Shown: positions 5,472 through 47,639, counted from the first letter of the stretch. The stretch is 64,000 bases of DNA from Elusimicrobiota bacterium (GCA_016715645.1 JADJZR010000008.1:48241-112240); one strand, 5' to 3'. A program made the numbers and translations. Notes: a model not told the origin generated them from the sequence alone.

Positions 5472-6994
5472 TGGACTCAAAAAAAATTATGGAGTTGGAT
5501 GCGTTGGCACTACAAGTTACGGACTGGAAACGGCAGGGCAAACGGGTGGTGCAGTGCCACGGCGTCTTTGACCTGTTGCACGTGGGGCATATTCGCCATT
5601 TAAATGAGGCCAAACGGTTCGGAGACTATTTAATCGTCACGCTGACCCCCGACCATCTCGTGAACAAAGGCCCCCATCGCCCTGCGTTTCCCCAACATCT
5701 CCGGGCAGAGGTGATGGCGGCTCTGGACGTGGTGGACGGTGTTGCGATCAATCGATGGCCCTCTGCGGTGGAATCCATCGGCCTTCTCAAACCAAACGTC
5801 TACGCCAAGGGGCCGGACTATCGAAAGGCGTCGGACGACGTCACGGGCGGAATTCTCCGGGAAGAAGAGGCCGTCCGCGCGGTGGGGGGCGAAATCCGTT
5901 TTACCGATGACGTGACGTTTAGTTCATCCAGCCTGGTCAATCTCCATTTAGATCTGCTTCCCCCGGAAGTCAAATCGTTCCTGGATGGTTTCCGTAAGAA
6001 ATACACAAAGGACGATATTTTCCGCTACATCGAAAGTCTTAAGGGTTTGCGGGTTGCGGTGGTGGGAGAAACCATTTTGGATGAGTATGTTTATTGTGAA
6101 GCCATGGGGAAATCTTCCAAAGAACCCACTTTGGCTGTACTTCGCCGGTCCCAGGAATTATTCGCGGGGGGGGCTTTGGCCATTGCCAACCATCTGGCGC
6201 AATTCTGCTCGGAAGTAGAGGTGATCACCTATTTGGGCGAACGGGATTCACAGGAAGAATTTGTCCGGAAAAGCCTGAATCCGCGCGTGCGGCTGACGGC
6301 CGTGAAAAAGCCGGGAGCCCCCACCATTGTCAAACGTCGCTACGTGGAGTCGTATCTTTTGTCAAAAATGTTTGAAGTCTATGATATGGACGACGAGGCC
6401 CTGACGGGCATTGCGGAAAATTCACTTTGCCAAGCAATGGAGTCTTCTTTTTCTAAAGTCGATGCGGTTCTTGTGGCCGATTATGGGCACGGTCTCATGA
6501 CGTCTAAGGCGGTGGCCCTGGCCTGTCAAAAGGCGCCTTTTCTGACGGTCAATACCCAGATCAACGCCGCCAACATCGGATTCCATGCCATTTCCCGCTA
6601 TCCCAAAGCGAACCATGTGTGTATCCAGGAATCTGAGCTGCGGTTGGAATACCGAAGTCGCCGGGGCCCCGTCAATGCCATGGTAACCGATCTGGAACGT
6701 CGTCTTGCGTGCGAGCGGATAACGGTGACCCGCGGCAGAGCGGGTATTCTGGTCCATGACCAGAAAGGTGATTTCCATCAATCTCCTGCCTTTGCCGTTA
6801 AGGTTTTGGATCGGATTGGGGCGGGAGACGCGGTTCTTGCGCTCACGTCCCTTTGCGCCGTGGCTGGCGTTCCGCCGGACGTTTCGGCGTTCCTGGGCAA
6901 TCTGGCGGGCGCCCAAGCGGTCACGATCATCGGCAACAAGACTTCCATTGATAAGGCGCTCCTTTTAAAAGCCGCCGAAGCCATGCTGAAATAA
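5471..6994 (+). CDS. hldE: Bifunctional heptose-7-phosphate kinase / heptose-1-phosphate nucleotidyltransferase (HldE/RfaE-like) with reversed domain order
   Basis: The N-terminus is a cytidylyltransferase-fold domain (VVQCHGVFDLLHVGHIRHLNEAKRFGDYLIVTLTPD, the RfaE domain-II signature). The C-terminus is a PfkB/ribokinase-like kinase (DRIGAGDAVLA). ATG at 5471 directly follows the upstream stop. Confidence 0.7.
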   Translation: MDSKKIMELDALALQVTDWKRQGKRVVQCHGVFDLLHVGHIRHLNEAKRFGDYLIVTLTPDHLVNKGPHRPAFPQHLRAEVMAALDVVDGVAINRWPSAVESIGLLKPNVYAKGPDYRKASDDVTGGILREEEAVRAVGGEIRFTDDVTFSSSSLVNLHLDLLPPEVKSFLDGFRKKYTKDDIFRYIESLKGLRVAVVGETILDEYVYCEAMGKSSKEPTLAVLRRSQELFAGGALAIANHLAQFCSEVEVITYLGERDSQEEFVRKSLNPRVRLTAVKKPGAPTIVKRRYVESYLLSKMFEVYDMDDEALTGIAENSLCQAMESSFSKVDAVLVADYGHGLMTSKAVALACQKAPFLTVNTQINAANIGFHAISRYPKANHVCIQESELRLEYRSRRGPVNAMVTDLERRLACERITVTRGRAGILVHDQKGDFHQSPAFAVKVLDRIGAGDAVLALTSLCAVAGVPPDVSAFLGNLAGAQAVTIIGNKTSIDKALLLKAAEAMLK

Positions 6995-7080
6995 GGAGCC
7001 CCTTTTTTTCCTTCCCCTCTTGGGGGAAGGTGCCCCAAAGGGTCGGATGAGGGGAGGAATTTTTTCTTTAAGGAGTTAAA

Positions 7081-8082
7081 ATGGTTCGATTCAAAAAAAT
7101 TTTGGTCACTGGTGGAGCTGGCTATGTTGGTTCGGCCCTTGTGCCGGCCCTGCTGAAAGTCGGCTACACCGTGCGCGCGCTGGACTTGTATTTGTACGGC
7201 GACCCCTTAAAAGACGTCGCAACGAACCCCCAACTCGAACAGGTGAAAGGCGACCTCCGGGACCAGGTTGTTTTAGACAAAGCCGTCCAGGGCTGTGACG
7301 CGGTGATTCACTTAGCGTGTGTTTCCAACGATCCCAGCTTTGAATTGGATCCCGCTCTCGGAAAGTCCATCAACTACGACGCTTTCTTCGGACTCATGAA
7401 GGCCGTGCGAAAAGCCAGGGTTCAGCGGTTGATCTATGCGTCCAGTTCCAGCGTGTATGGTTTGCGGGAAGAACCGGATGTGCGCGAGGAAACCCCCTGC
7501 ACTCCTTTGACAGATTACTCGAAGTACAAGCTGATGTGCGAAGACGCGTTGCGCGCCGACGGCCTGGGCGGAGCGGAATACGTCATTGTTCGACCAGCCA
7601 CGGTCTGCGGCTACGCCCCGCGCATGCGGTTGGACCTTTCCGTCAATATCCTCACCATCCATGCCCTGGTCAAAAAACAGATCACTGTGTTCGGTGGCAG
7701 TCAACTTCGCCCCAACATCAATATTCTGGACATGGTGGACGTCTACAAGCTTTTGTTAGAGGCCCCAAAAGAAAAAATTCAGGGGGACGTTTTTAACGCG
7801 GGGTATGAGAACCTTTCCCTCTCTCGTATCGCTGAGATGGTCAAAAACCAACTCCAAGACCCGACCATCACCATTAAAGTGGAACCCACCAACGATCTGC
7901 GTTCCTATCACGTGAACTCCGACAAAATCGCCCGAATCCTGGGTTTCCGCGCGCGCCATACTGTCGAACAGGCGATTGAAAGCATTCACAAGGCTTTTCA
8001 GGAAGGAAAATTCCAAGACCCTCTGACGAACCCTCTTTATTACAACATCAAAACCATGCAACAGGCGAAGCTCGGGGGCTAA
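7081..8082 (+). CDS. NAD-dependent sugar epimerase/dehydratase (extended SDR)
   Basis: ILVTGGAGYVGSAL, YASSSSVYG, YxxxK (YSKYK). Confidence 0.75.
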   Translation: MVRFKKILVTGGAGYVGSALVPALLKVGYTVRALDLYLYGDPLKDVATNPQLEQVKGDLRDQVVLDKAVQGCDAVIHLACVSNDPSFELDPALGKSINYDAFFGLMKAVRKARVQRLIYASSSSVYGLREEPDVREETPCTPLTDYSKYKLMCEDALRADGLGGAEYVIVRPATVCGYAPRMRLDLSVNILTIHALVKKQITVFGGSQLRPNINILDMVDVYKLLLEAPKEKIQGDVFNAGYENLSLSRIAEMVKNQLQDPTITIKVEPTNDLRSYHVNSDKIARILGFRARHTVEQAIESIHKAFQEGKFQDPLTNPLYYNIKTMQQAKLGG

Positions 8083-19423: not shown

Positions 19424-20739
19424 CACTACTGTCCGGTTAAGAAGTGATGAGCAGTAACTGTTTTCCGGCGAGGCGACTCTCGGTTTCCGAACGATTTTCC
19501 GAAAGTGACTGATTGATATCGCTTTTCTCGAAAATGGAAATGCTGAGGATCTGCAGGATTTCGTTCAGACTTCGAGAAATGTTCCGCTCTTTTTTGAGGA
19601 GAGCGACCAGGACGTAAACTGTGATGGCGATCCAGATTTGAGTCTTGACCGCATTCTCTGATGTCCCGTAGAACGTCTTGATGCGCAGATTTTGTTTGAT
19701 CCATTTGAAGAAAAGCTCCACCCGCCAGCGGGCCTTGTAAAGTTGCGCGATGGTCAAGGCAGGGAGAGAAAAGTTGTTGGTCAAAAAGACCAAATGCTTC
19801 TTTGTTTCGGGGTCGATGTAGTGAATGCGTCGGAGGACGTCTGGATAATTTTGAGATGGGTAGAACCCTCTCAAGCGGATGGTTTGATCGGAACAGAGTC
19901 CGGTGGTTTTGTCTACTGCCTGCGAAGACACGTGATTGAATTTCATATTTCGTTTGGCTCGGGTCACAAAGAAGGCCGCGCTCTGGGTGATGACATAAAG
20001 CCGGGAAAAATCGATGTAGCCCCGGTCCATCATGTAGAAAGCACCGGCCTCTAAAATAAGATGGTCCAGAGCGTTGACATCGTGGACTTTTCCGTCGGTA
20101 ATGTGAATAAAACAGGGAATGCTTCCCCGCAGATCGATGAGCGTATGGAGCTTGACGGCAGCCTTGTGTTTGCGAAAGCGAGCCCACGGGAACAGCGAGA
20201 GACAGAGATCGGTGGTTGTCGAATCGAATGCGTAGGCGGTCTGATTCAAATCGACACCGAAAGAATCTTTGGCGTATAGAGTTCTGGCTCGCTGAATCAG
20301 GATGTGAGCGAAGTCGGCATAGATGCGCCAATCGCGCGTTTCGTTGGCATCGGCCAAAGTGCTTTTGAACATTTGGCCACGAAAGCCCATGTGATAAAGT
20401 CGGGACTGCATCGGGCGCAAACACGTTTCGATATCTCGAAGGCTTTCCCGGTAAGTCAGCTGGGCAAAAGCCATCGATAAAAACTGGTCCCAGCAGGAGA
20501 ACCGGCGGAGACGACGATCTCCCCGATAGCGATGAACGCACTTTCTGAAATCGTGCAAAGGAACGTGATCCATGATTTGGGCAAACGCAGTCCGTCCGGT
20601 GTTCATAGGCCATCCCCTCCCCTGTGGAATGGCCAAAGAGTAACATGAATTTCAAATCGATTACAGGCATTATTGTTTTCAATCCTTTGTCTTTAATGCA
20701 TTTTCAGCAATTTCTGTTTCGCTTAACCGGACAGCAGTG
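19424..20739 (-). mobile_element. IS4-family (DDE) insertion sequence, about 1.3 kb, with 18-bp imperfect terminal inverted repeats (17/18 match)
   Basis: Left IR cactactgtccggttaag (19424-19441) versus the reverse complement of the right IR cttaaccggacagcagtg (20722-20739). A single transposase ORF lies inside. Confidence 0.75.
19437..20636 (-). CDS. IS4-family DDE transposase
   Basis: N-terminus MAIPQGRGW...FSCWDQFLSMAFAQLTYRESLRDIE is a typical IS4-family leader; 399 aa. The overlapping 418-aa ORF in another frame is taken to be an artefact. Confidence 0.75.
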   Translation of the reverse strand: MAIPQGRGWPMNTGRTAFAQIMDHVPLHDFRKCVHRYRGDRRLRRFSCWDQFLSMAFAQLTYRESLRDIETCLRPMQSRLYHMGFRGQMFKSTLADANETRDWRIYADFAHILIQRARTLYAKDSFGVDLNQTAYAFDSTTTDLCLSLFPWARFRKHKAAVKLHTLIDLRGSIPCFIHITDGKVHDVNALDHLILEAGAFYMMDRGYIDFSRLYVITQSAAFFVTRAKRNMKFNHVSSQAVDKTTGLCSDQTIRLRGFYPSQNYPDVLRRIHYIDPETKKHLVFLTNNFSLPALTIAQLYKARWRVELFFKWIKQNLRIKTFYGTSENAVKTQIWIAITVYVLVALLKKERNISRSLNEILQILSISIFEKSDINQSLSENRSETESRLAGKQLLLITS

Positions 20740-20748
20740 ACAAAGGCC
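20740..20748 (+). repeat. 9-bp target-site duplication (acaaaggcc), right copy
   Basis: See the left copy; it lies 3 nt upstream of the ATG of the downstream aminotransferase. Confidence 0.7.
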
Positions 20749-20751
20749 ATT

Positions 20752-21864
20752 ATGGACATTAAAAAAATAGACTGGTGGAGGACTTCATTCGGTCAAGAAG
20801 AAATCAGTATGTTGACGAAATCAATGTCCGAAGAACATATTAGCCAAGGTCCCGTCACGGCTGAATTTGAAGCGCAATTCGCCAAGGCGATGAATGTCCC
20901 CTACGCTGTTGCGACCACCAGCGGGAGTGTCGCTCTCCTGATGTCTCTTATGGCCATGGGCGTAAAGAGAGGGGATGAGGTGATCGTGTCCAATCGCACG
21001 TTCATTGCGACGGCTCATGCTCCTCTGATGTTGGGGGCAAAAGTCGTCCTTGTTGATGTTCACCGGGACGTCCCTGTTATGGACGTTTCTTTAATTAAGA
21101 AAAAAATCACGGCTCGGACCAAGGCCATTATGCCGGTACATCTGTGTGGTCGTGCGGTTGATCTGGCGGGAATTCATCGCCTTGCCAAGGCCTATGGGCT
21201 TTGTGTCATCGAGGATGCCTGTCAAGCGATGTTTTCAAAAAACGAGAGGGGGTATTTGGGCACACAATCCGATGTGGGTTGTTTTTCGTTGGGTGTCACT
21301 AAACTTATATCATCGGGACAGGGCGGGGTTGTTGTAACCAGCAATCGCCGCACATACGAAGAATTGAAATTAATTCGCAACCATGGAGTTCCTGGAACAT
21401 TCGAAGCCACCTATCCGCGGTTAGGGTTTAATTTCAAATTTACCGATATTCAGGCCGCCATCGGGTTGGCTCAACTCCGTCGAGTAAAGGATCGATTATT
21501 GAAGCTTCATTCCCTTTACCGGAAATACGAAGGTAACTTGAAGGAGCTCGATTTTCCGTTTCTGAGATTAATTCCCGTGAATGTGAACGCTGGCGAAGTC
21601 CCCCTTTATATTGAGGCGCTGTGTCAAAATAGAGATTCCGTTCGGAATTATCTAAACAGTCGAGGAATTGAGGTGCGGCCCTTTCTTCCCAATCTCAATC
21701 AATCCCCACATATCAAAAATGGAGGATCCTTCCCCCATTCGACCGAATTTTCAAAGCACGGGTTCTTTCTCCCCTCAGGCCCGGATCAATCAGACTCTAA
21801 CGTTGATCGGGTTCTAAACGCTATGCAATCTTATGTTAGAAGAAAAAAAATAGGTTTATTCTGA
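20752..21864 (+). CDS. DegT/DnrJ/EryC1/StrS-family PLP-dependent sugar aminotransferase
   Basis: ATG at 20752 (MDIKKIDWW). The ORF-track start at 20737 lies inside the IS inverted repeat. Typical DegT motifs are present, and the catalytic Lys is in ...SLGVTKLISSGQGG. Confidence 0.8.
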   Translation: MDIKKIDWWRTSFGQEEISMLTKSMSEEHISQGPVTAEFEAQFAKAMNVPYAVATTSGSVALLMSLMAMGVKRGDEVIVSNRTFIATAHAPLMLGAKVVLVDVHRDVPVMDVSLIKKKITARTKAIMPVHLCGRAVDLAGIHRLAKAYGLCVIEDACQAMFSKNERGYLGTQSDVGCFSLGVTKLISSGQGGVVVTSNRRTYEELKLIRNHGVPGTFEATYPRLGFNFKFTDIQAAIGLAQLRRVKDRLLKLHSLYRKYEGNLKELDFPFLRLIPVNVNAGEVPLYIEALCQNRDSVRNYLNSRGIEVRPFLPNLNQSPHIKNGGSFPHSTEFSKHGFFLPSGPDQSDSNVDRVLNAMQSYVRRKKIGLF

Positions 21865-22571
21865 TGGTGGATTCAAAAAAAGTCGCTGTTTTGGGATTTC
21901 AAGAAGGAGTTGCCGGTCAGGTGGACTCATGGTTTGAAATGGCCACGGGCCTTCAGATTTCTTGTTTTGTCCTTGAGGCGGATGATTTTCCCCCGATTGA
22001 CGTCGAGGCAGAAAATAGAAAACGTGTTTCCCAGCGAATGGAGTATCCAACAAAAGGCCAGTACAAAGGACGCCCCTTTATTATCGCGCTGGATTGGGCG
22101 AAGCATTTGAAAAGGCTTGGGATATCGAAAGTTCTCCCACTCACTCCGGATAACCGGGTTCGGTTTCATCAATTGGAGGTGTGTCATCAAGAAGGTTTTC
22201 AATTGATTTCCGCTATTCATCCAAGTGTAATCATTCTTCCCGGGGCCACGATCCAACCAGGGGTATGGATTAATGCGGGCAGTATCATCGGATATAAATC
22301 GGAAATTGAGGAAGGCGTCTTTATCAATACGGGCGTGAAGATTGACCACCATAACGTTTTAAAGCGGTGTTGTCAGGTGGACCCCGGCGTGGTAACGGCT
22401 GGGAATGTGACACTTCGGGAGTGTAGCCACGTTCATACCGCCGCCACCCTTATCAATCGTGTTGAAATTGGGGAAGACGCGATCGTGGGGGCGGGGGCGG
22501 TGGTCCTCGATTCAGTTCCGCCAAAAGTGGTCACGGTGGGAGTTCCATCGAAAGTGATTCGCCATGTCTAA
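21864..22571 (+). CDS. Sugar N/O-acetyltransferase, NeuD/PglD family (hexapeptide-repeat left-handed beta-helix)
   Basis: N-terminal Rossmann-like VAVLGFQEG followed by hexapeptide repeats (IGEDAIVGAGAVV). Confidence 0.65.
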   Translation: MVDSKKVAVLGFQEGVAGQVDSWFEMATGLQISCFVLEADDFPPIDVEAENRKRVSQRMEYPTKGQYKGRPFIIALDWAKHLKRLGISKVLPLTPDNRVRFHQLEVCHQEGFQLISAIHPSVIILPGATIQPGVWINAGSIIGYKSEIEEGVFINTGVKIDHHNVLKRCCQVDPGVVTAGNVTLRECSHVHTAATLINRVEIGEDAIVGAGAVVLDSVPPKVVTVGVPSKVIRHV

Positions 22572-24426
22572 GCTAAAAATTGGTTTGAGTTCATTGCTGA
22601 GCAATCATACGACAAAAGACATTTTCCTGCTCATTGGTGTGTATTTCTTAAGCTATGGGTTTATGTTGTTGAATCCGGGTATTTATTGGGACGACTGGTT
22701 TATATCAACACACACTTTGCCAGACCTAATTAGTCATTGGGGAATGTGTGGCGGGAGTTTGTTCATTCGGATTCATCATGGCATTCTCGGTTATGATAAT
22801 GCTGTTTTAATTTTCCGTTTGCTCATCTTCACGGCTTATTTTTTGGGGATGATTTTCTTTTACTTGTTTTTAAAAGAAATAAAAATACTCGGAGGATCAA
22901 AGCCATTTTGGTTATGTCTGCTGATCTCCGTATATCCTGTCAGCCAGGGAAGATTGGCTTTGATTCTAACTTATAATGCTTGGAGTTATTGTTTTTTTGC
23001 CTTAGGTTTGTGGTTGACATTGCTCTGGGTTCGTCGCCCGAACCTTGTATTTCGATGGGGGGCGCTTTTATCCTTTAATCTTTCTTTCTTCACCAATTCA
23101 TTCTTAGTCATTTACGCCGTTGTCCCTCTCCTCTTGCTTGGGGATTCAATTAAAAAATTCCCCAAGAATCTCCGGTCAATATGTATTGATGTATTGAAAC
23201 GGGTTGATTTTTTTGTTCTGCCGTTGTTATTTTGGCTAGCGAGATTGAAGTATTGGTCGCCGGACTCAGGTTCAGGTTACAATGAGATCGTATTCATGCC
23301 ATTACAAGTGCTCTTCATACAATTTACCAAGGCTTTCCATTCTTCATTTTTAGGTGTTTTTGAACTCCTTTTTGGTAGGCTGGACGGGTCACTGTCTCGA
23401 AGTGTGTTGTTCGCAGGCGCTTTCGTGCTATGTTTTAGAGCATTGATGGAAAAAGTGGGGGACACGAAGTGGAAGTTTGTCGCCACTGGATGGGGGCTTC
23501 TCTGTGTCGCCTCCTATTTTTATGTGCTTTACCCGTTTCCATATGTGGATGGATTTCCCGCCTCGGATTTATTTTTAATAATCACATGTCTTTTCGTTTT
23601 CGGGGAAACTTTTGAGACTGAAACCCTTGAGCCTGTTCAAAGGAACGAGGAACTCATGAATTGCGGATTGATACTCTGCGGTGCTTTCCTTTTCCTATTG
23701 GGGGTGTACCCCTACATTGCAGTCTGGAAGGTTCCCCGCCCGGTGGATTTTGATTCGCGTTACGAACTCATCGTTCCGTTCGGCGCTGGTTTTATGGTTT
23801 ATGGAACGGTTTGCCTTGTGGGTTCTCATTTTAAGTTTCGAAAGATTTACAACAAAATCTTATTAAGCACGTTGATCATTTTCTTTGTTGGATTGAATGT
23901 CAGGAGTTTATTTTTGTGGCAGTGTGATTACTACAAACAATGCGCCATTATGGCGCGCCTTCGTGTGATCCCTCCCCCCGTTTTTGATTCAAAGATAGTG
24001 GTGGTTGACGATGAAACAGGTGCAATTAATGCGTGGGGGCGAAAGTATTATCACTATGAATGGGAAGGGTTCATTCGTTTCGCTCTAAATAGTGATGAAC
24101 AGATTGGAACGGACTATAGGAATTTTAAGTGGATGGACTACCGGGGTGTCAGGAGAAAAGGGGGAGAATCAAAATTGATCGTAAGAAACACCTATGGGCG
24201 TCACCATCGACCCTGTCTTATCATCACAGCCCCTCCGCTTTCTCCGTTCGAGGAGCAGGAGAGCTCCCTCTCCTTCCCATCGAGATTTCGAAAGGATTGC
24301 CTGCGCCTCCTGTGGCTCGAACTGTTTTATCCGGAGGATTTCCAGAAAAAAATTGGTCAAATGCTTGATTTGAAATGGATTTGCACGTGTGAAATAAATG
24401 AAAAAAATCGCCATCGTTCAATCTAA
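22564..24426 (+). CDS. Polytopic membrane protein with C-terminal soluble domain; candidate GT-C glycosyltransferase/polymerase
   Basis: At least 11 hydrophobic segments over the first ~450 aa, then a ~170-aa hydrophilic tail. No specific family recognised. Confidence 0.35.
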
Positions 24427-25093
24427 TTATATTCCGTGGAAGGGCTACTTTGATTTGATTGCGGCTGTCGACGAATTTATCTTATATGATGATGTTCAAT
24501 ACACCCGGCGGGATTGGCGAAATCGGAATCAAATAAAGACTCCGCGGGGAGTGGAATGGATGACCGTGCCCGTGAAGGTCAAGGGTCGGTTTGAACAAAT
24601 CGTTCGCAAGACGGAGGTCGATGGGGTGAAATGGGCAAAGGATCACTGGAAATCGCTCGTGCAAAACTACCGATCCGCCCCTTGTTTTGGCGGAATAGCA
24701 TCCTGGCTTGAGCCACTTTACCTCAATGAGGAATATACCCACCTTTCGCAACTGAATCATCGGTTTATGAGCGCCATCTCCTCATTCCTTGGAATTACAA
24801 CACCGATTCGCCATTCGAGGGATTACCCCTTGTCGGAAGGCCGATCGAAACGATTGGCCGAGCTTTGTGTGTCCGTGGGGGCGACCGAATACATATCGGG
24901 TCCTGCAGCCAGAGAGTACATCGACGAAACCGTGTTTGCCGCACGTGGTATCACGCTAAAATGGTTCGATTACGCCGGCTATCCGGAGTATCCTCAACTT
25001 TGGGGGAAATTTGTTCATGGGGTTTCCATCCTGGATTTGTTGTTCAATTGCGGGAAGGACGCTCCACGATACATGAGGTATGTGCGATCATGA
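24398..25093 (+). CDS. WbqC-family protein
   Basis: [48 protein letters not shown] is diagnostic of the WbqC-like family. Confidence 0.7.
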
Positions 25094-26016
25094 AACTATC
25101 CATTGTTTCGACCCTTTATCGATCGGCTTCTCACCTTCCCGAGTTTTACTACCGTTCCAGCCAAGCCGCCCAGAAACTTGTTGGGGACGACTATGAGATT
25201 GTCTTGGTGAACGATGGTTCGCCCGATAACAGTTTGGAGATCGCGGTCAGCCTCGCGCAAAAGGACAAACACATCGTGGTTGTTGATTTGTCGCGCAACT
25301 TCGGTCATCACAAGGCTATGCGAACGGGTTTGGAGTATTCCTTAGGGGAGAGAATGTTTCTCATTGACAGTGATCTTGAAGAACAACCCGAGTGGCTCTT
25401 TACGTTTTCTTCGACCATGATGGAGGAATCGGCCGACGTGGTCTTTGGTGTCCAATTGAATCGTAAAGGCAATTGGTTTGAACGATGGAGTGGTTACATG
25501 TACTACTCTGTTTTCAAATGGTTGTGCAATATCCAGCATCCGCGGGATATCGTCACCGCTCGCCTCATGTCACGTCGTTACGTCAAGGCGTTCCTGCAGT
25601 TCCCTGAAAAGGAAGCCCCCATTTCTTGTCTTTGGTTGCTAACGGGATTTAAACAGTGCCAACAGGTTGTGAAAAAACAGATGCGTAGTCCATCGACCTA
25701 CTCCGTACCAAAAAAAATACAACTTGCGATGGACTCTATTACCTCATTTAGTGAGGTCCCTTTAAAGATCATTTTCTATTTGGGGGCATCGATTTTTATT
25801 TGCGCACTTTTTTACAGCGCTTATCTTGTGTTTATTCGTTTGGCGCATTCCCAAGCCGTTGATGGATGGACGTCTGTCATGGTGTCCGTTTGGCTTCTGG
25901 GGGGGGGGGGCATATCATTTATTGGCTTGTTGGGAATTTACATTTCCAAGATATTCCTGGAAGCAAAACAGCGGCCACACGCCATTGTGAGGGAAATCCA
26001 TGGGCGATCTCACTGA
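25090..26016 (+). CDS. GT2-family glycosyltransferase (polyprenyl-phosphate sugar transferase-like; C-terminal TM helices)
   Basis: ATGA overlap start at 25090. [14 protein letters not shown] and DLSRNFGHH (a DxD region). The C-terminal membrane anchor contains the G12 tract. Confidence 0.75.
25899..25910 (+). repeat. Homopolymeric G12 tract inside the GT2 coding sequence (encodes GGGG in the C-terminal TM region)
   Basis: Read directly: ctgg-gggggggggg-cat. Confidence 0.9.
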
Positions 26017-26695
26017 CAACATCAATTCTCGCTACGAACAATTCTATGGAAAGAGAACCGGCCTTCGTGTGTATCCAACGGAATTCGTCGTTCGAACTTT
26101 TTTGGCAAACTATCCAAATTTGACTTTTCCTAAGCCTAGCCCCGGCAATCGTGTGCTTGATGTGGGATTTGGCGATGGTCGGAATACTATTTTCCTCTGC
26201 GATCAGGGTTTTGCCGTGAGTGGTACTGAAATCACACAGGGGATTGTTGATCAGACGAAGGCCAGGGTTCAGAGGTTGGGTTTTCGAGCGGATTTGAAGG
26301 TTGGCAGAAACAGCCATCTTCCCTTCGGCGATGAATTCTTCGACTACCTTCTCGCCTGCCATTGTTGTTATTATTGTGACGAGGGGGTATCTTTTTCTGA
26401 CAACCTAAACGAGTATGCCCGGGTTTTAAAGAGCGGGGCCTATTTGGTGGCATCGGTGGCCAGCCGTTCGTCTTTCATATTCGACCAGGCGGTTGCGCTC
26501 GATGACGGATCGCTTGTCGTTAAGTTAGATCCATACGGTAATCGCAATGGATATCGTTTGCAAGCATTTGACACGAAGGAACAGATCCGCGATTATTTTT
26601 CTCGTTGGTTCAGTAATTTTTCATTCGGGTATGCGGATAATGACTACTATGGTATTTCAGAGCGTGTTTTCTGGGTTGTTTGCCAAAGGATTTGA
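26000..26695 (+). CDS. Class I SAM-dependent methyltransferase
   Basis: VLDVGFGDGRNTIFL motif I. Confidence 0.6.
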   Translation: MGDLTDNINSRYEQFYGKRTGLRVYPTEFVVRTFLANYPNLTFPKPSPGNRVLDVGFGDGRNTIFLCDQGFAVSGTEITQGIVDQTKARVQRLGFRADLKVGRNSHLPFGDEFFDYLLACHCCYYCDEGVSFSDNLNEYARVLKSGAYLVASVASRSSFIFDQAVALDDGSLVVKLDPYGNRNGYRLQAFDTKEQIRDYFSRWFSNFSFGYADNDYYGISERVFWVVCQRI

Positions 26696-26698
26696 GAT

Positions 26699-27676
26699 AT
26701 GAGCAATAATTCTGTCTATTGTTGCATTGAGCCTGCATGTTTAAAGGGGCGTTTAGCTAAAGGCCAAGAGGGCCTTTCTTGTTGTAACGGACATTTTATT
26801 CCATTTATCCCGTCCACGGATGTCCCCGTTTTTAATTGTGACCCGAAAGATTCAAATGAGTATACGCGTTTAAACGCGGGGGAAATACATGAAAATTCAC
26901 TCCGCTGGCTTTTTTCAACTTTTGGCGACGACGAAGTCAGTTTTAGGGAGCGGCTCATTACTCGGCTGTTTCTAAAAAAAGGGTCTCGGGTGCTGGTCAC
27001 CGGCGCGGGAGCTGGTAACGACTTGCCTTTCTTGATCCGCGCGCTGGAGGGAAAGGGAGAAATCTTTGCACAGGACATCGCGAAGGAAATGATCCTTGTT
27101 GGAATTTCTCGATATAAAAATGATTTCCCTCGTTCTGATGTTAATGTGTATTTTTCAGTTTCCGATGCGACTACTCTTCCTTTTTTAGATGATTTCTTTG
27201 ACTCCGCCTACCATTTCGGCGGCATCAACTTGTTTTCGAATATCAAACGCGGTATCGCCGAGATGAACCGTGTGGTAAAGGCGGAGGGGCGTGTTGTGAT
27301 CGGTGATGAAGGACTCGCCCCCTGGCTTACGCGAACCGAATATGGGGAGATGCTGGTTAAAAATAACCCGCTCTATTCTTGTGCGCCTCCCCTCTCGGCC
27401 ATTCCGGAAACAGCGAGGGCGGTTAATCTTTCTTGGGAATTGGGCAATTGTTATTACATTATTGAATTTCAAGTGTCCAAAACCCCCTTATCGATCAATA
27501 TTGATATTCCACACAAGGGCAAGCGGGGGGGCACCCTTCGGACACGCTACTATGGACAACTGGAAGGGGTTGACCCCAACTTACGCGATAGAATTTATGC
27601 GGAAGCGGAGCGGCAGGGTGTCAGCCGGGTTAATTTCCTTGAATCAATTTTGCGTGCATCCCTTCGGGGGGATTGA
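26699..27676 (+). CDS. Methyltransferase-like protein with N-terminal Cys-rich (Zn-ribbon-like) segment
   Basis: An N-terminal Cys cluster (CCIEPACL...CCNGH) followed by VLVTGAGAGNDLPFL (motif-I-like). The C-terminus is unrecognised. Confidence 0.4.
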   Translation: MSNNSVYCCIEPACLKGRLAKGQEGLSCCNGHFIPFIPSTDVPVFNCDPKDSNEYTRLNAGEIHENSLRWLFSTFGDDEVSFRERLITRLFLKKGSRVLVTGAGAGNDLPFLIRALEGKGEIFAQDIAKEMILVGISRYKNDFPRSDVNVYFSVSDATTLPFLDDFFDSAYHFGGINLFSNIKRGIAEMNRVVKAEGRVVIGDEGLAPWLTRTEYGEMLVKNNPLYSCAPPLSAIPETARAVNLSWELGNCYYIIEFQVSKTPLSINIDIPHKGKRGGTLRTRYYGQLEGVDPNLRDRIYAEAERQGVSRVNFLESILRASLRGD

Positions 27677-28641
27677 TGTTCGAAGGGAATGGGATTAAAC
27701 GTTATCTGTCTCAGTCACACCCATTCCCTTGGCAAAAAAGAGGTTTGATATTTGAGCCCGTTGGCTTGGATTATTCGCACGGTAGCCATCCCTGCGCATT
27801 TCATTTAAAAGAGGATCTTTTCCTTATTGCATTCACCCGTCGGGATGCCCAACAACGATCTCACATCTTTTTGTCCCACGCCACGGTTTCTGAAGGTCGG
27901 GTCGTGTTGCATGGAAATCCAACGCTCGCCTTGCGTCCTGGAAATACCGGTTGCTTTGATTGCGATGGGGTCATCAGTGTCTGTTTTGTGGCCCATCAGG
28001 GGCAAACGTATTTGTATTTTGTAGGTTGGCAAAATCTTCCGGAGGGCATGTGGATATGCGACACGGGTCGGGCACGGCTCGATTTCAATCAGCTCACGTT
28101 AACGAAAGAGTTTCCAGGTCCCGTGCTTGGTCGCGATAAATCAAATCCGCTTTTCGCCGCCGCCACAGCTTTCCACATAACGGAGGATGGTCTTTGGCAG
28201 ACGTGGTATAACTCCGGGATTAAATGGGAAAAGACTTCCCAAGGAATGAAGCCTATTTATGGGATCCATTACGCCCACTCATTAGATGGCATTGAATGGG
28301 TTTGTCACCCTGGTTTATGTTTGCCGTTTGCCGATGAATTTGAATATGCATTTGGGCGGCCAAGTGTGGTTAAAGTTGACGATACTTATTTCATGTGGTA
28401 TGCGCACCGTGCCTCGAGGAACATAGATAGTTATCGGATGGGATTTTCCTCTTCAACGGATGGACGTTATTGGTGTCGAAACGATCTCTTGGCAGGAATT
28501 GATGTTTCTGTATCGGGATGGGATAGTGAAATGATTTGTTATCCCTATGTGTTTAGCCATAAGGGATGGATGTATATGCTCTACAATGGAAACGGGTTTG
28601 GGAAAACGGGTTTTGGTTTAGCGGTGCTGGAGCCATCGTAA
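27673..28641 (+). CDS. Beta-propeller protein, glycoside-hydrolase/sialidase-like (GH43/GH130/BNR-type); function uncertain
   Basis: Repeated W/Y-rich blade-like segments and an Asp-box-like SSSTDGRYW. Assignment is by composition and pattern only. Confidence 0.3.
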   Translation: MMFEGNGIKRYLSQSHPFPWQKRGLIFEPVGLDYSHGSHPCAFHLKEDLFLIAFTRRDAQQRSHIFLSHATVSEGRVVLHGNPTLALRPGNTGCFDCDGVISVCFVAHQGQTYLYFVGWQNLPEGMWICDTGRARLDFNQLTLTKEFPGPVLGRDKSNPLFAAATAFHITEDGLWQTWYNSGIKWEKTSQGMKPIYGIHYAHSLDGIEWVCHPGLCLPFADEFEYAFGRPSVVKVDDTYFMWYAHRASRNIDSYRMGFSSSTDGRYWCRNDLLAGIDVSVSGWDSEMICYPYVFSHKGWMYMLYNGNGFGKTGFGLAVLEPS

Positions 28642-29312: not shown

Positions 29313-29313
29313 A

Positions 29314-29553
29314 ATGAATAAACGGTTGGCTTCGATCCTTGCCGAAGTGTTTCATATTCGAGAAACTGAAATTCATCCTAAACTTACCAAAGCCGATGTG
29401 GGGGCTTGGGATTCCTTAAAACAAATGGATTTAGTCGTTGTCCTGGAAAGATCCTATGGGATCGAATTAAGCATCCCCGACATTCTTCGAATGGGATCGG
29501 TTTCTGCCATCATGGATGTGTTGAAGGAAAAAGGGGTGAACCTTGGAGATTAG
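29314..29553 (+). CDS. Acyl/peptidyl carrier protein (stand-alone, DltC/ACP-like)
   Basis: 79 aa. The GAWDSLKQMDLVVVLE segment contains the conserved DSL phosphopantetheine-attachment serine in a 4-helix-sized protein. Confidence 0.65.
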   Translation: MNKRLASILAEVFHIRETEIHPKLTKADVGAWDSLKQMDLVVVLERSYGIELSIPDILRMGSVSAIMDVLKEKGVNLGD

Positions 29554-30283: not shown

Positions 30284-30284
30284 A

Positions 30285-31073: not shown

Positions 31074-31093
31074 ATTTTTATACTGGACACCTT

Positions 31094-36874: not shown

Positions 36875-36878
<4 letters not shown>
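35628..36878 (+). CDS. Hypothetical protein (possible glycosyltransferase of the O-antigen-locus TIGR04372-like type); family not confidently recognised
   Basis: One N-terminal hydrophobic segment, 416 aa, no canonical motifs identified. Confidence 0.25.
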
Positions 36879-39952
<3,074 letters not shown>

Positions 39953-39956
<4 letters not shown>

Positions 39957-42026: not shown

Positions 42027-42030
42027 ATCA

Positions 42031-43101
42031 ATGAAAGTGGTTATTCGTGTGGATGGTTCCCGTGCGATTGGGACGGGACATATCGTTCGTTGTCTGACAT
42101 TAGCAAAGGCCTTACGTTCAAAGGCCGCACAAGTCTCATTTATTGTTAACGATATGGAAAATAGATGGGCGAGATGGATATCAAGCGCTGGATACAAGGT
42201 GCATCGAATCTTAATTAATCCAGTGGCCAACTTTTCTTGGAAGCGTGACGCGGACCAAACACTCTGTTTCCTGGAAAGGCAAGGGTCTCTTTGGGACGTT
42301 TTAATCGTAGATCATTACGGATTGGATCAAAAATGGGAAAGGGCAGTTCGATATTCCACCCGAGTTCTCCTTGTCATTGATGATATTTGTGGGCGGTATC
42401 ATGATTGTGATATTCTCCTAAACACATCCGATTATCGGACAATTTCTCAAAGGTCCTCGCGGCGACGGGGAACAAGCCCCATTCTGTTAAGGGGGGGGGC
42501 GTATGCTCTTTTGGAGACAGATTTTTTGAAAGGACATAATCGGTTGAAAGAGAAGGAGGATCGACCTCCCAACACGGTCCATGTATTTTTTGGTGGGGTT
42601 GATGATCCTAATTACACTGAACGCTTTTCCCGGTGGGTCGCGACCTCTTTCCCCAATTTAAAACTCCAGATTGTGGTGAGTCGGTGGTACCCTCACATCC
42701 GTTCCCTGACAAGGCTTAAGAAGGATTTTAGGGGTTCTGTAAACTGGGCCAGAAATGTAAAGATGGCATTGCCTATGGCGAAATGTGACCTAGCTCTTGG
42801 TACGCCTGGGGCTACCACATGGGAAAGGGCTTGTCTTGGTCTGGCTCCGGCATACGTGTCTGTGGCGGAGAATCAGAAACCCATTCTTCGGCGTCTTCAG
42901 AACGATGGTTTGTGTTCTTATTTGGGTGAAGCCGGAAAATTAACTGAGGATGTTTTTTTGAAGCGTTTTTCTGCATTCCTGTCAGATCAATGCGGTCTCA
43001 CCCGCATGCGCCGGAATGGCATGTCCATGGTCGATGGGGACGGGGTTAGAAGAGTGGTCGAGACGGTATTCGCTAGGTTAAGGGAAGGCGGCCCAAGGTG
43101 A
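42031..43101 (+). CDS. pseG: UDP-2,4-diacetamido-2,4,6-trideoxy-beta-L-altropyranose hydrolase (PseG)
   Basis: MKVVIRVDGSRAIGTGHIVRCLTLAKAL is the PseG N-terminal signature. About 350 aa, GT-B fold. Confidence 0.7.
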   Translation: MKVVIRVDGSRAIGTGHIVRCLTLAKALRSKAAQVSFIVNDMENRWARWISSAGYKVHRILINPVANFSWKRDADQTLCFLERQGSLWDVLIVDHYGLDQKWERAVRYSTRVLLVIDDICGRYHDCDILLNTSDYRTISQRSSRRRGTSPILLRGGAYALLETDFLKGHNRLKEKEDRPPNTVHVFFGGVDDPNYTERFSRWVATSFPNLKLQIVVSRWYPHIRSLTRLKKDFRGSVNWARNVKMALPMAKCDLALGTPGATTWERACLGLAPAYVSVAENQKPILRRLQNDGLCSYLGEAGKLTEDVFLKRFSAFLSDQCGLTRMRRNGMSMVDGDGVRRVVETVFARLREGGPR

Positions 43102-43622
43102 ATCAGGGGATAAGACTTCAAGAATATAATTCGGCGTTTGATCGATCGACCGTGCGCTGGTTGAATTATCCCAGTGTTCGGCGAGGGTTTGGTCTAACTT
43201 ATCGGATATCTTTGTCGTCGCACCGTCAATGGAGGCGGGGGCAGAAAAATCTTCTGTTTTGGGGAATTTTGGATGAAAAGGGACGTCACCAGGGGAATGT
43301 TTTGGTTCATTGCAACCCTCGTCATCGAAGTGGTTATCTGCAGATGTATATTGGCAGCCCACGCAAAAGAGGGAAAGGTCTCGGACAAGGAGCTTTGGTG
43401 GCTGCGTTGGATGACCTATTTTTTCGAAGAGGATTCCATCGCGTTTGGTTGCATACGCTTTGTCGAAATTCCCGCGTTGAAAAATTTTACCGTAGACTGG
43501 GGTTTTCTTCCGAGGGGGTTGAAAGAGGGTCTTTTTTTCGTGCGGGTCGCTTTGAGGATCAACGCCGTTGGTCTATACTTGCCTCAGAATGGAGAAAAAA
43601 CCCAGGTCGCACGATACAATGA
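43098..43622 (+). CDS. pseH: GNAT N-acetyltransferase (PseH-like)
   Basis: 174 aa GNAT with RGKGLGQGAL motif A. It directly follows pseG with a GTGA overlap. Confidence 0.55.
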   Translation: MNQGIRLQEYNSAFDRSTVRWLNYPSVRRGFGLTYRISLSSHRQWRRGQKNLLFWGILDEKGRHQGNVLVHCNPRHRSGYLQMYIGSPRKRGKGLGQGALVAALDDLFFRRGFHRVWLHTLCRNSRVEKFYRRLGFSSEGVERGSFFRAGRFEDQRRWSILASEWRKNPGRTIQ

Positions 43623-44314
43623 TGTGTGTGATTATGCAACCAACATATTTTCCGTGGCCAGGGTATTTTAACCTGATCGCCTCGGCGGATGTGTTCGTTT
43701 TCTTGGATGACGTTGCGTATGAAAAAACCTCTTGGCAAAACAGGAACCGTGTTTTGGTGTCCGGGCGACCGCATTGGATCACCGTTCCTGCCCGACGCAT
43801 GTTTTTGGGACAACAGCTTCGGAACGTTGAAGTATCAGAAAACAATCGGTGGCGGGACAAGCATTTTCGATTGTTAAAAGAATCGTATGCGAGGCACCCA
43901 CACTACACGGACATGATGGACATCGTCTCGATACTGAGGGATGAATCGTTAAAATCCTTGGTGGATCTCAACACCAAAATCATTCGAACAGTGTGCGATC
44001 GATTGGGTCTTTTGGCTTCCTTTCGAAGTTCTGGGCAGATGGGAATTTTGGGGGACCGCTCGGAACGGTTGTCGAAAATTTGTGTGGCTCTCGGATGCGA
44101 CACTTATCTCAGTCCGATTGGAGCTAAAGAATACCTGGAAAATGATCATTTCAGTTCCACTGGATCGGTTCGTCTCCTTTTCCAGGATTATTCTCCTCAA
44201 TCCTATCCACAAATGGGATCGAAGAACTTTTTCGACCATCTCTCAATTTTGGACCTCATTGCCAACGTGGGATTTTCACATGCCGCGGCTTATGTGAAAA
44301 GTGGCGGTTCGTGA
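43619..44314 (+). CDS. WbqC-family protein (second copy)
   Basis: MMCVIMQPTYFPWPGYFNLIASADVFVFLDDVAYEKTSWQNRNRV is paralogous to the gene at 24398. Confidence 0.7.
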   Translation: MMCVIMQPTYFPWPGYFNLIASADVFVFLDDVAYEKTSWQNRNRVLVSGRPHWITVPARRMFLGQQLRNVEVSENNRWRDKHFRLLKESYARHPHYTDMMDIVSILRDESLKSLVDLNTKIIRTVCDRLGLLASFRSSGQMGILGDRSERLSKICVALGCDTYLSPIGAKEYLENDHFSSTGSVRLLFQDYSPQSYPQMGSKNFFDHLSILDLIANVGFSHAAAYVKSGGS

Positions 44315-44335
44315 CTTTAATTTTGGAGGATCATT

Positions 44336-47636: not shown

Positions 47637-47639
47637 TCC

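What the first reader, a model, noticed from the sequence alone, without database searches (positions are those of the whole stretch)
25899..25910. G12 homopolymer inside the GT2 glycosyltransferase gene - candidate slipped-strand phase-variation switch
Twelve consecutive G residues lie in the coding sequence, giving GGGG in the C-terminal membrane region of the polyprenyl-phosphate glycosyltransferase-like gene. Tracts of this length undergo +/-1 slippage at high frequency, and in other bacteria they toggle glycan biosynthesis genes. Any length change here would frameshift the last ~40 codons.
Basis: seen in the sequence. Interest (0 to 1): 0.55.

Follow-up and report, generated by a model that had tools for sequence, protein, structure and literature searches.

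The report
Unique G12 run in glycan gene
A run of twelve G's really does sit inside a sugar-carrier-loading enzyme gene of an uncultured Elusimicrobia bacterium, and it arose only in this lineage by overwriting two conserved residues. It could work as a slippage on/off switch for a surface-sugar decoration, but there are no data to show that it switches.

Summary
G12 lies at 25899-25910 inside a 308-aa GT2 gene (25090..26016, +). The protein aligns end to end with the polyprenyl-phosphate glycosyltransferases GtrB and ArnC. The tract encodes G271-G274 in the middle of the second transmembrane helix (TM2), and 34 codons follow it.

An independent Logan assembly of SRR11674015 reproduces the tract exactly, so an assembly artefact is unlikely.

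The tract is a derived state found only here. Among 145 other DNA homologues and 117 other protein homologues the site reads GG[M/L][I/V/T], Gly never occurs at 273 or 274, and the longest G run is 7. There is no indel, so the run grew by in-register substitutions.

A ±1 slip removes the second half of TM2, invariant residues including K287, and the C-terminal beta-strand. In GtrB and ArnC that C-terminal element bridges the tetramer. Loss of function is therefore the expected result.

Points against an evolved switch:
- The tract sits 88% of the way into the gene.
- It is the only run of 10 or more in a roughly 50-kb sugar island.
- GGG is the preferred Gly codon.
- No sibling genome or length variant exists in any collection searched.

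Verdict: a real and very probably hypermutable tract. Phase variation is plausible but unproven. It is at most a new member of a known kind, and interest is modest.

The parts
25899..25910 (+). G12 homopolymer. It covers the last base of the L270 codon, three GGG codons (G271-G273) and the first two bases of GGC (G274).
   Evidence: reproduced in the independent Logan contig L001
25090..26016 (+). GT2 gene, 308 aa, a GtrB/ArnC-type polyprenyl-phosphate glycosyltransferase. Its ATG overlaps the upstream stop (ATGA).
   Evidence: Pfam PF00535, E 2.3e-23. NCBIfam PgfS and ArnC match over full length but below their cut-offs. End-to-end match to GtrB 5EKP (E 2.6e-45) and ArnC 9HWJ (E 8.9e-33). AlphaFold2 model: GT-A domain, TM1 222-253, TM2 259-292, strand 300-304.
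25912..26013 (+). The 34 codons after the tract: the second half of TM2, the invariant block G279..G282-I283-Y284..K287..E291..K293-Q294-R295-P296, and the C-terminal beta-strand. All are lost after a ±1 slip.
   Evidence: Invariant columns. Versus the 82% homologue: 26 identical, 6 synonymous and 2 non-synonymous codons, i.e. purifying selection in the G12 frame. K287 aligns with GtrB R290 (PMC4728340).
25988..25990 (+). Stop codon reached in the G11 (or G14) frame, giving a 299-aa product. It lies 10 nt before the next gene's ATG.
   Evidence: slippage simulation
26121..26123 (+). Stop codon reached in the G13 (or G10) frame, giving a 344-aa product. Ribosomes would read across the next gene's start at 26000.
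   Evidence: slippage simulation
24398..25093 (+). WbqC-family gene, the conserved upstream partner of the GT2 gene.
   Evidence: Pfam PF08889, E 1.4e-80. Found with the GT2 homologue in 75 of 80 loci from other genomes, immediately upstream in those inspected.
22564..24426 (+). 620-aa polytopic membrane protein with no known family. It is a candidate periplasmic transferase that would use the lipid-linked sugar; this role is inferred only.
   Evidence: No Pfam, NCBIfam or PDB hit. Only 3 homologues, including its own database entry. About 11-12 hydrophobic segments, and an invariant YWDDW motif after the first. The AlphaFold2 model is unusable.
26000..26695 (+). Downstream methyltransferase gene. 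It overlaps the GT2 3' end by 17 nt, so its translation may be affected by the G13 frame.
   Evidence: Pfam Methyltransf_11/25; junction sequence
20737..22571 (+). DegT-type sugar aminotransferase (20737..21864) and hexapeptide acyltransferase (21864..22571). They are the likely makers of the N-acylated amino-sugar donor.
   Evidence: Pfam PF01041, E 3e-82, and PF00132
25890..25918 (+). Weak sigma-70-like match, TTGGCT-17 nt-TATCAT, whose spacer contains the G tract.
   Evidence: 9 of 12 matches. The hexamers come from conserved W-L and I-S-F codons. Homologous positions in 146 loci score mostly 5-7 of 12, and two (this window and L157) reach 9. Probably chance.

Best explanation
The G12 run is real and arose only in this lineage, in the middle of TM2 of a GtrB/ArnC-type enzyme. 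That enzyme loads an (amino-)sugar onto undecaprenyl phosphate, and the loaded lipid then donates the sugar for decoration of a surface glycan on the outer face of the membrane.

The consensus length of 12 keeps the gene in frame, so the consensus state is ON. During replication the run should gain or lose one G by slipped-strand mispairing far more often than ordinary mutation occurs.
- G11 gives a 299-aa protein and G13 a 344-aa protein.
- Both lack the second half of TM2, the invariant K287/E291/K293-Q-R-P block and the C-terminal beta-strand.
- In the solved homologues that C-terminal element ties the tetramer together.
- These variants should therefore be inactive (OFF), and the lipid-linked sugar and its decoration would disappear. 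A second slip restores the frame.

The gene sits inside a long, translationally coupled operon. A coding-sequence tract is one of the few ways to toggle this one step alone.

Shown here: the tract, its frame, its uniqueness, the family assignment, the outcomes of a frameshift, and purifying selection on the in-frame tail.

Inferred: high slippage rate, loss of function, the identity of the decorated glycan, and any adaptive benefit such as escape from phages or grazers.
For: - Tract and frame.
- Independent assembly agrees.
- Family: full-length alignment to GtrB and ArnC structures, GT2 domain, and two TM helices plus a C-terminal strand in the model.
- Derived state: all 145 other DNA homologues and 117 other protein homologues have GG[M/L][I/V/T]. 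None has Gly at 273 or 274, and the longest G run at the site is 7. The nearest relative (82% aa) reads GGA GGA ATG ATT.
- Given the peptide, G12 or longer has only P = 0.026 under this window's codon usage. This points to a DNA-level process or selection rather than a protein-level choice.
- The tail is functional: 6 synonymous versus 2 non-synonymous changes in the 34 post-tract codons, with many invariant residues there.
- Structural role of what is lost: the TM helices form an eight-helix bundle and the C-terminal hairpin bridges protomers in GtrB (PMC4728340) and ArnC (PMC12690121). GtrB R290, a proposed UndP docking site, aligns with K287.
- Tract length and rate: in C. jejuni, lengthening G8 to G11 raised mutability 10-fold, and the modal phase-variable tract is G9 (PMC3401435).
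- Precedent for homopolymers switching O-antigen genes under phage pressure: V. cholerae wbeL and manA (PMC3441752).
Against: - No length variant or OFF allele was found. The organism appears only as this NCBI MAG contig and one 1.4-kb Logan contig. The next relative is 82% identical, and JGI and GTDB hold nothing above 71%. There is no population evidence either way.
- The tract lies 88% of the way into the gene. Homopolymers used for gene inactivation are preferentially at 5' ends (shown for poly(A)/poly(T); PMC2831843).
- It is the only run of 10 or more among about 45 sugar-pathway genes in the window.
- This window does not avoid G runs. Coding G runs of 7 or more number 15 against 7.4 expected (P = 0.008), and GGG is the commonest Gly codon at 33%. 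A long run may simply be the tail of a mutational bias.
- The frameshifted tails remain moderately hydrophobic, so complete loss of membrane insertion is not certain.
- The mismatch-repair status of the organism is unknown.
Confidence: 0.45

Rival explanations
1. The tract is an incidental mutational by-product, not a switch. A GGG GGG seed grew at its 3' end by successive substitutions next to the run: ATG to GTG to GGG, then ATC to GTC to GGC. This is the outcome expected from transient-misalignment (dislocation) mutagenesis, and each step passes through a conservative Val intermediate. The resulting GGGG is tolerated in TM2. Frameshift variants then arise as a mutational burden and are simply purged, so no function is served and the tract is evolutionarily short-lived.
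For: - The substitutions needed are exactly those that extend the run base by base with no indel.
- Val occurs at these positions in homologues: GGVI, GGMV, GGLV.
- The window shows a general excess of coding-strand G runs and uses GGG as its top Gly codon.
- There is only one long tract in the island.
- The 3'-proximal position is atypical for inactivation tracts (PMC2831843).
- Runs of 10 or more occur at about 1 per 1.4 Mb in comparable loci anyway.
- Dislocation mutagenesis itself is cited from general knowledge and was not tested here.
Against: - Two radical Val-to-Gly steps had to be fixed at positions where none of about 260 homologues has Gly.
- The rest of the gene is under clear purifying selection.
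- Poly(G) and poly(C) runs are generally under-represented in prokaryotic genes (PMC2831843). That suggests such tracts are normally removed unless they are useful.
Confidence: 0.42
2. The tract, or its exact length, is a sequencing or assembly artefact. Examples would be a long-read homopolymer error surviving polishing, or a two-colour poly-G artefact.
For: - The source is a MAG whose locus tag is IPN19_06515. From memory, tags of this style belong to the Danish activated-sludge MAGs of BioProject PRJNA629478. I did not verify that link.
- Those MAGs were built from Nanopore and Illumina data and are population bins rather than strains (PMC9765116).
- Long homopolymers are error-prone on all platforms.
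Against: - An independent k-mer assembly of run SRR11674015 gives the identical 1418 bp, including G12.
- The difference from relatives is an in-register substitution of six bases, not an indel.
- The downstream frame is intact and conserved.
- Indel-type homopolymer errors or read-end poly-G artefacts would not produce this pattern.
Confidence: 0.06
3. The tract acts as the spacer of an internal promoter (TTGGCT-17 nt-TATCAT, 25890-25918) that drives the downstream methyltransferase genes. Length changes would then tune transcription, as with poly-C or poly-G spacers in Bordetella fim or Neisseria porA and opc promoters (those examples are recalled, not checked here).
For: - The scan finds a 9-of-12 match with the G run inside an optimal 17-nt spacer.
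- My rough estimate is that a given 12-nt tract falls wholly inside such a spacer by chance about 0.4-0.8% of the time.
Against: - The region holds fewer promoter-like sites than its shuffles do: 12 against 16.8.
- Both hexamers are dictated by conserved codons (W268-L269 and I275-S276-F277), and the spacing is fixed by the protein register in all homologues. Another homologue also reaches 9 of 12.
- Promoter consensus in Elusimicrobia is unknown.
- The match was noticed after the fact.
Confidence: 0.03

Closest known systems
Poly-G/C contingency loci in glycan genes of Campylobacter jejuni (capsule, LOS and flagellin-glycosylation genes) and Neisseria (lgtA/C/D/G, pgl genes)
   Same: A G/C homopolymer lies inside the reading frame of a surface-glycan biosynthesis or modification gene. 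A ±1 slip gives a frameshift OFF state. The tract length is within or above the known active range: the C. jejuni mode is G9, and G11 is 10-fold more mutable than G8 (PMC3401435).
   Different: - Those species carry many such tracts per genome (29 loci with polyG/C of 7 or more in NCTC11168; PMC4965091 abstract), and switching has been measured. Here there is one tract in 64 kb and no measurement.
- The host here is an uncultured environmental Elusimicrobia bacterium.
- The tract is 3'-proximal and lies in a TM helix.
- The Neisseria examples are recalled from general knowledge.
Vibrio cholerae O1 wbeL (A8) and manA (A9) homopolymer phase variation of O antigen
   Same: A single homonucleotide tract in the coding sequence of an O-antigen pathway gene. 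The organism is not known for genome-wide repeat-mediated switching. Frameshift variants alter the glycan and are selected by phage (PMC3441752).
   Different: - Those are poly-A tracts, located near the 5' end or mid-gene.
- They are conserved in all 37 O1 strains examined, with frameshifted alleles seen in isolates.
- No such comparative or experimental evidence exists here.
Salmonella and Shigella gtrABC O-antigen glucosylation modules (GtrB = UndP-glucose synthase)
   Same: The enzyme is of the same type and has the same logical role: a cytoplasmic-face GT2 loads a sugar on undecaprenyl phosphate for a periplasmic decoration step. In Salmonella, gtr operon expression is phase variable (recalled: Broadbent et al. 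2010, Dam/OxyR-dependent).
   Different: - The Salmonella switch is epigenetic and acts at the promoter, not through a coding repeat.
- This protein is only a distant relative of GtrB (E 2.6e-45, below the NCBIfam equivalog cut-offs).
- It has Thr where GtrB has D157, and it is paired with WbqC rather than with GtrA and GtrC.
Arn pathway (ArnB aminotransferase, ArnA formyltransferase, ArnC, ArnT)
   Same: The neighbourhood logic matches: a DegT-type aminotransferase, an N-acyltransferase, an ArnC-like GT2 and a large polytopic membrane protein. In the Thiobacillus locus L044 a formyltransferase directly follows the GT2 homologue.
   Different: - The score is below the ArnC equivalog cut-off (122 against 529 bits).
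- The membrane protein has no detectable similarity to ArnT or to anything else solved.
- The sugar and the acceptor are unknown.
- To my knowledge Arn is regulated by two-component systems, not by repeats.

Membership tests
Polyprenyl-phosphate glycosyltransferase (PI-GT; GT2 of the GtrB/ArnC/DPMS type) | N-terminal GT-A (GT2) catalytic domain | tested here: met
   Pfam PF00535, E 2.3e-23, 83 bits against a cut-off of 23.3. The model shows alternating strands and helices over residues 3-193.
Polyprenyl-phosphate glycosyltransferase (PI-GT; GT2 of the GtrB/ArnC/DPMS type) | DxD metal/nucleotide-binding motif | tested here: met
   D93-S-D95 is invariant in the subfamily. It aligns with GtrB D94-x-D96 (motif named in PMC4728340).
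Polyprenyl-phosphate glycosyltransferase (PI-GT; GT2 of the GtrB/ArnC/DPMS type) | Two C-terminal TM helices followed by a short C-terminal beta element | tested here: met
   The AlphaFold2 model has helices 222-253 and 259-292 and a strand at 300-304. Hydropathy peaks agree. The architecture is described for GtrB and ArnC in PMC4728340 and PMC12690121.
Polyprenyl-phosphate glycosyltransferase (PI-GT; GT2 of the GtrB/ArnC/DPMS type) | End-to-end sequence similarity to solved members | tested here: met
   Residues 2-305 align with GtrB 5EKP (E 2.6e-45). Residues 2-303 align with ArnC 9HWJ, 9BHC and 8VXH (E 9e-33 to 1e-28).
GtrB orthologue (UndP-glucose synthase) | Putative catalytic acid D157 (the D157N mutant is inactive in GtrB) | tested here: not met
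   The aligned residue is T156, invariant in this subfamily (PMC4728340). ArnC also lacks Asp at this position. The residue therefore defines GtrB proper, not the wider family, and this protein is not filed as GtrB.
GtrB / ArnC / PgfS equivalogs (NCBIfam) | Score above the curated equivalog cut-off | tested here: not met
   PgfS 167 bits against 500; ArnC 122 bits against 529. This is a distinct subfamily whose sugar is unknown.
Simple-sequence-repeat contingency locus (phase-variable gene) | Repeat tract of mutable length in the reading frame or promoter | tested here: met
   G12 in frame. This is longer than the C. jejuni modal G9 (PMC3401435).
Simple-sequence-repeat contingency locus (phase-variable gene) | Tract-length polymorphism within or between populations, with ON and OFF alleles | tested here: inconclusive
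   No second genome or contig of this organism exists in the collections searched, and no frameshifted variant appears among the listed protein homologues.
Simple-sequence-repeat contingency locus (phase-variable gene) | Frameshift abolishes function, reversibly | not testable with these tools
   Only inferred, from the loss of 34 conserved C-terminal residues and the structural role of that region in GtrB and ArnC.
Simple-sequence-repeat contingency locus (phase-variable gene) | Measured switching rate well above the background mutation rate | not testable with these tools
   Needs a reporter fusion or deep read analysis.
Simple-sequence-repeat contingency locus (phase-variable gene) | Tract maintained by selection: conserved among relatives, or several such tracts in surface genes | tested here: not met
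   The tract is absent from all homologues. No other run of 10 or more occurs in this window's roughly 45 sugar genes. The rest of the genome was not available.

The most novel reading that the evidence does not exclude
This is a newly born contingency locus in an environmental, uncultured phylum (Elusimicrobia) where repeat-mediated phase variation has not been described. On this reading, selection for switchability drove stepwise extension of a conserved GG motif into G12, at the cost of two otherwise invariant hydrophobic TM2 residues. That created a gene-specific ON/OFF toggle for one step of a widely transferred WbqC-GT2 glycan-decoration cassette inside a tightly coupled operon. A second G12 tract, together with an A9, lies at the 5' end of the formyltransferase next to the homologous GT2 gene in a Thiobacillus MAG (L044). 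This hints that the cassette may be a recurrent target for such switches.
Probability: 0.25. Interest if true: 0.5.

Novelty: new member of a known kind. Interest (0 to 1): 0.3.

Why it matters
If the tract switches, stochastic surface-glycan variation would extend beyond host-associated pathogens, where it is a hallmark, to free-living wastewater and environmental bacteria of a barely studied phylum. Phage or protist pressure would presumably be the driver. It would also give a clean example of how a contingency repeat is born from a conserved Gly-Gly motif.

In practice, the tract marks a position where MAG consensus sequences may hide population heterogeneity, and it is easy to test by counting tract lengths in reads. 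If it does not switch, it is simply a rare homopolymer that annotators should watch for frameshift artefacts.

Tried and rejected
1. Sibling alleles.
- An exact-flank DNA pattern with a variable gap found nothing in the JGI metagenomes.
- Protein-guided scans of GTDB genomes and JGI metagenomes found only relatives of 71% identity or less.
- Exact-protein look-ups of the two neighbouring genes found no record.
- There is therefore no population comparison.

2. Frameshifted OFF variants in the 5.8-billion-protein collection. None is listed, and the next hit after the MAG's own protein is 82% identical.

3. Local divergence as evidence. The tract window differs from the nearest homologue at 7 of 12 bases, but 46 of 916 windows of 12 nt have 6 or more differences. 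Divergence alone is therefore not exceptional. The direction of change and the conservation of the residues are what stand out.

4. GGG-GGG codon-pair preference. It is not significant: 14 of 106 against 11.7 expected, P = 0.28.

5. Identity of the 620-aa membrane protein as a GT-C partner.
- No Pfam, NCBIfam or PDB match.
- No similarity to the protein in the same position in L044.
- Only three homologues, including its own entry.
- The AlphaFold2 model has pLDDT 42.8, too poor for a fold search.

6. Literature.
- No paper mentions SRR11674015.
- None links a phase-variable poly-G tract to an undecaprenyl-phosphate glycosyltransferase.
- None among the four search hits has phase variation in Elusimicrobia as its subject, judging by titles and abstracts.
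- None describes a WbqC function.

7. Ideas considered and dropped without a test.
- G-quadruplex: a single G12 cannot form a stable three-tier quadruplex.
- Programmed frameshift fusing the gene to the next one: the alternative frames end at 25988 or 26121 and never join the methyltransferase frame.

Full report
OBSERVATION

Window 25899-25910 is twelve consecutive G. The enclosing gene runs from 25090 to 26016 on the + strand and encodes 308 aa. Its ATG overlaps the stop of the upstream gene (ATGA), and its last 17 nt overlap the start of the next gene. The tract reads CTG GGG GGG GGG GGC, giving L270 and G271-G274.

It is the only homopolymer longer than 9 in the window. G-run counts fall about 3-fold per extra base, from 85 at length 5 to 1 at length 9, and then jump to the single run of 12. 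I estimated rarity in three ways.
- Extrapolating that decay gives roughly 0.05 expected runs of 12 or more in 64 kb.
- Reshuffling synonymous codons while keeping the proteins gives 0.13 expected runs of 10 or more in all window genes. It gives P = 0.026 for 12 or more at this site, given the peptide LGGGGI.
- In 1.38 Mb of homologous loci from other organisms there is exactly one G/C run of 10 or more.

The tract is therefore uncommon but not impossible by composition alone.

IS IT REAL?

The window belongs to a 180-kb contig of a MAG that NCBI labels 'Elusimicrobia bacterium' (locus tag IPN19_06515 for the neighbouring gene). An independent Logan assembly of sequencing run SRR11674015 contains a 1418-bp contig identical to window 24820-26237, including G12.

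The difference from relatives is an in-register replacement of bases, not an indel, and the reading frame downstream is intact and conserved. Homopolymer indel errors or read-end poly-G artefacts would not give this pattern. I put an artefact at about 6%.

From memory, IPN-type locus tags belong to the Danish activated-sludge MAG set, BioProject PRJNA629478. PMC9765116 describes that set as Nanopore plus Illumina data and as 'population bins'. I did not verify the link. If it holds, G12 is a population consensus.

WHAT THE GENE IS

- Pfam finds a GT2 domain.
- NCBIfam matches PgfS and ArnC over their full length, but far below the equivalog cut-offs.
- The protein aligns end to end with the solved polyprenyl-phosphate glycosyltransferases GtrB (5EKP, E 2.6e-45) and ArnC (E about 1e-32).
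- The DxD motif is present: D93/D95 align with GtrB D94/D96.
- An AlphaFold2 model (mean pLDDT 72) shows the family architecture: a GT-A domain, TM1 at 222-253, TM2 at 259-292 and a C-terminal strand at 300-304.

The tract is therefore in the middle of TM2.

GtrB's putative catalytic D157 aligns with T156, which is invariant in this subfamily. ArnC also lacks Asp at that position (PMC4728340). This is a distinct PI-GT subfamily, not GtrB or ArnC proper.

CONTEXT

The gene lies in a co-directional sugar island of about 50 kb with lower GC than its flanks. The island contains:
- three DegT aminotransferases;
- several acyltransferases and many methyltransferases;
- a PseB-like dehydratase, NeuB and a CMP-sugar cytidylyltransferase, which together look like a nonulosonic-acid pathway;
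- an ABC exporter and a radical-SAM enzyme;
- a second WbqC gene;
- transposases at the right edge.

A WbqC-family gene accompanies the GT2 homologue in 75 of 80 loci from other genomes and lies immediately upstream in those inspected. The nine genes from 24398 to 32644 are syntenic at 60-78% amino-acid identity with loci in Rhodoferax, Variovorax and Desulfarculales. This is a horizontally shared cassette of unknown product.

The gene order is DegT, acyltransferase, a 620-aa polytopic membrane protein, WbqC, then GT2. That order resembles the logic of the Arn pathway. The membrane protein is an orphan with no detectable family, and I could not establish its role.

THE KEY COMPARATIVE RESULT

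In the alignment of close homologues there is no gap at the tract. The first two glycines are invariant and are shared even with GtrB. Positions 273 and 274 are M or L, then I, V or T.
- Across 145 other DNA homologues from GTDB genomes and JGI metagenomes, none has Gly at either position. The longest G run at the site is 7.
- The same holds for the 117 other closest proteins from the 5.8-billion-sequence collection.
- The nearest relative (82% aa, 80% nt) reads GGA GGA ATG ATT.

G12 is therefore a unique, derived state. It was made by two synonymous changes plus M273G and I274G.

The needed changes are exactly those that extend a G run at its 3' border one base at a time: ATG to GTG to GGG, then ATC to GTC to GGC. 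Each passes through Val, which some homologues carry at these positions.

The rest of the gene is under purifying selection. The pre-tract region shows 83 synonymous and 50 non-synonymous codon differences. The 34 post-tract codons show 6 synonymous and 2 non-synonymous. The G12 frame is thus the functional one.

CONSEQUENCES OF SLIPPAGE

- G11 (or G14) gives a 299-aa protein that ends at 25988-25990.
- G13 (or G10) gives a 344-aa protein that ends at 26121-26123, reading across the next gene's start at 26000.
- Both lose the invariant residues G279, G282, I283, Y284, K287, E291, K293, Q294, R295, P296, I299, R301 and G305, and the C-terminal strand.

In GtrB and ArnC the two TM helices of each protomer build an eight-helix bundle, and the C-terminal beta-hairpin bridges subunits (PMC4728340; PMC12690121). 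K287 aligns with GtrB R290, a proposed first docking site for the undecaprenyl-phosphate head group.

Loss of function is therefore the expected outcome, but it is an inference. The frameshifted tails stay moderately hydrophobic.

MECHANISM AND RIVALS

Best explanation (0.45): a genuinely hypermutable tract makes this one step of glycan decoration stochastically switchable, and the consensus state is ON. Supporting literature:
- In C. jejuni the modal phase-variable tract is G9, and lengthening G8 to G11 raised mutability 10-fold (PMC3401435).
- In V. cholerae, single homonucleotide tracts in the O-antigen genes wbeL and manA generate phage-resistant variants (PMC3441752).

Main rival (0.42): an incidental product of run-extension mutagenesis with no adaptive role.
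- For it: the 3'-proximal position, since inactivation tracts favour 5' ends (PMC2831843).
- For it: no other run of 10 or more in the island.
- For it: a general excess of coding-strand G runs in this window, 15 against 7.4 expected (P = 0.008), with GGG the top Gly codon.
- Against it: two radical Val-to-Gly replacements were fixed at positions where no homologue has Gly.
- Against it: poly-G and poly-C runs are generally under-represented in prokaryotic genes (PMC2831843).

Minor rivals:
- Artefact (0.06), discussed above.
- A promoter-spacer reading (0.03). A 9-of-12 sigma-70-like match, TTGGCT-17 nt-TATCAT, brackets the tract. Both hexamers derive from conserved codons, and the same positions in another homologue also reach 9 of 12.

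WHAT COULD NOT BE DONE

No second genome or metagenome contig of this organism exists in any collection searched. Tract-length polymorphism is the decisive evidence, and it could not be examined. Raw reads are outside these tools.

VERDICT

If true, it is a new member of a known kind, namely a repeat-mediated contingency locus in a new phylum and a new enzyme subfamily. Interest is 0.3.

Noticed in passing
L044 6923-6931 and 6953-6964 (Thiobacillus MAG contig NODE_12_length_532640): A second G12 run, encoding S-G-G-G-G-N, and an A9 run both lie within the first 18 codons of a formyltransferase gene (6911..7624). That gene directly follows the GT2 homologue. This is the only G/C run of 10 or more in 1.38 Mb of control loci, and its 5' position is typical of a contingency tract.
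   Followed up: partly
window 42491-42499: A G9 run (CGG GGG GGG G) lies at codon 154 of a 356-aa ORF (42031..43101). The ORF has no family assignment beyond a very weak GT28 N-terminal hit (E 0.08), and it sits in the nonulosonic-acid part of the island. It is the second longest tract in the window.
   Followed up: partly
window 25555-25557 (codon T156 of the GT2 gene): The residue aligned with GtrB's putative catalytic acid D157 is Thr, and it is invariant across this WbqC-linked subfamily. The D157N mutant of GtrB is inactive. ArnC also lacks Asp at this position, so this Asp is not universal among polyprenyl-phosphate glycosyltransferases.
   Followed up: partly
window 24398-32644: A nine-gene cassette is syntenic at 60-78% amino-acid identity with loci in Rhodoferax, Variovorax and Desulfarculales. 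It comprises WbqC, GT2, two methyltransferases, a GH43-like protein, a hexapeptide acyltransferase, an SDR, a GNAT and an AMP-dependent ligase. WbqC accompanies the GT2 gene in 75 of 80 genomes. This looks like a widely transferred glycan-decoration cassette whose product is unknown.
   Followed up: partly
window 1-64000, coding strand: There is a strong strand asymmetry in homopolymers: 16 G runs of 7 or more and no C run of 7 or more. Against synonymous-codon reshuffles, coding G runs of 7 or more are doubled (15 against 7.4, P = 0.008) and C runs are absent (0 against 2.3 expected). Nearly all genes are on the + strand and GC skew is positive throughout.
   Followed up: partly
window 22564-24426: A 620-aa polytopic membrane protein with about 11-12 hydrophobic segments and an invariant YWDDW motif after the first one. 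It has only two distant homologues in 5.8 billion proteins and no Pfam, NCBIfam or PDB match. A protein of similar size but with no detectable sequence similarity occupies the same position in L044.
   Followed up: partly
window 36875-48710: An apparent nonulosonic-acid (pseudaminic/legionaminic-type) pathway: DegT, a PseB-like Polysacc_synt_2 dehydratase, a cytidylyltransferase and NeuB. It is accompanied by a second WbqC (43568..44314), a GNAT, a radical-SAM/SPASM enzyme and several methyltransferases.
   Followed up: no
window 55406-57924: Two adjacent, overlapping DDE transposase ORFs mark the right edge of the low-GC sugar island. GC rises from about 0.48 to 0.55-0.62 beyond them.
   Followed up: no
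window 73-1248 and 12258-13712: Two proteins carry the HATPase_c_4 domain ('RecG C-terminal'), one of them with a Schlafen/AlbA_2 domain. They lie at the left end of the window and about 12 kb further in, within the left part of the sugar-gene region.
   Followed up: no
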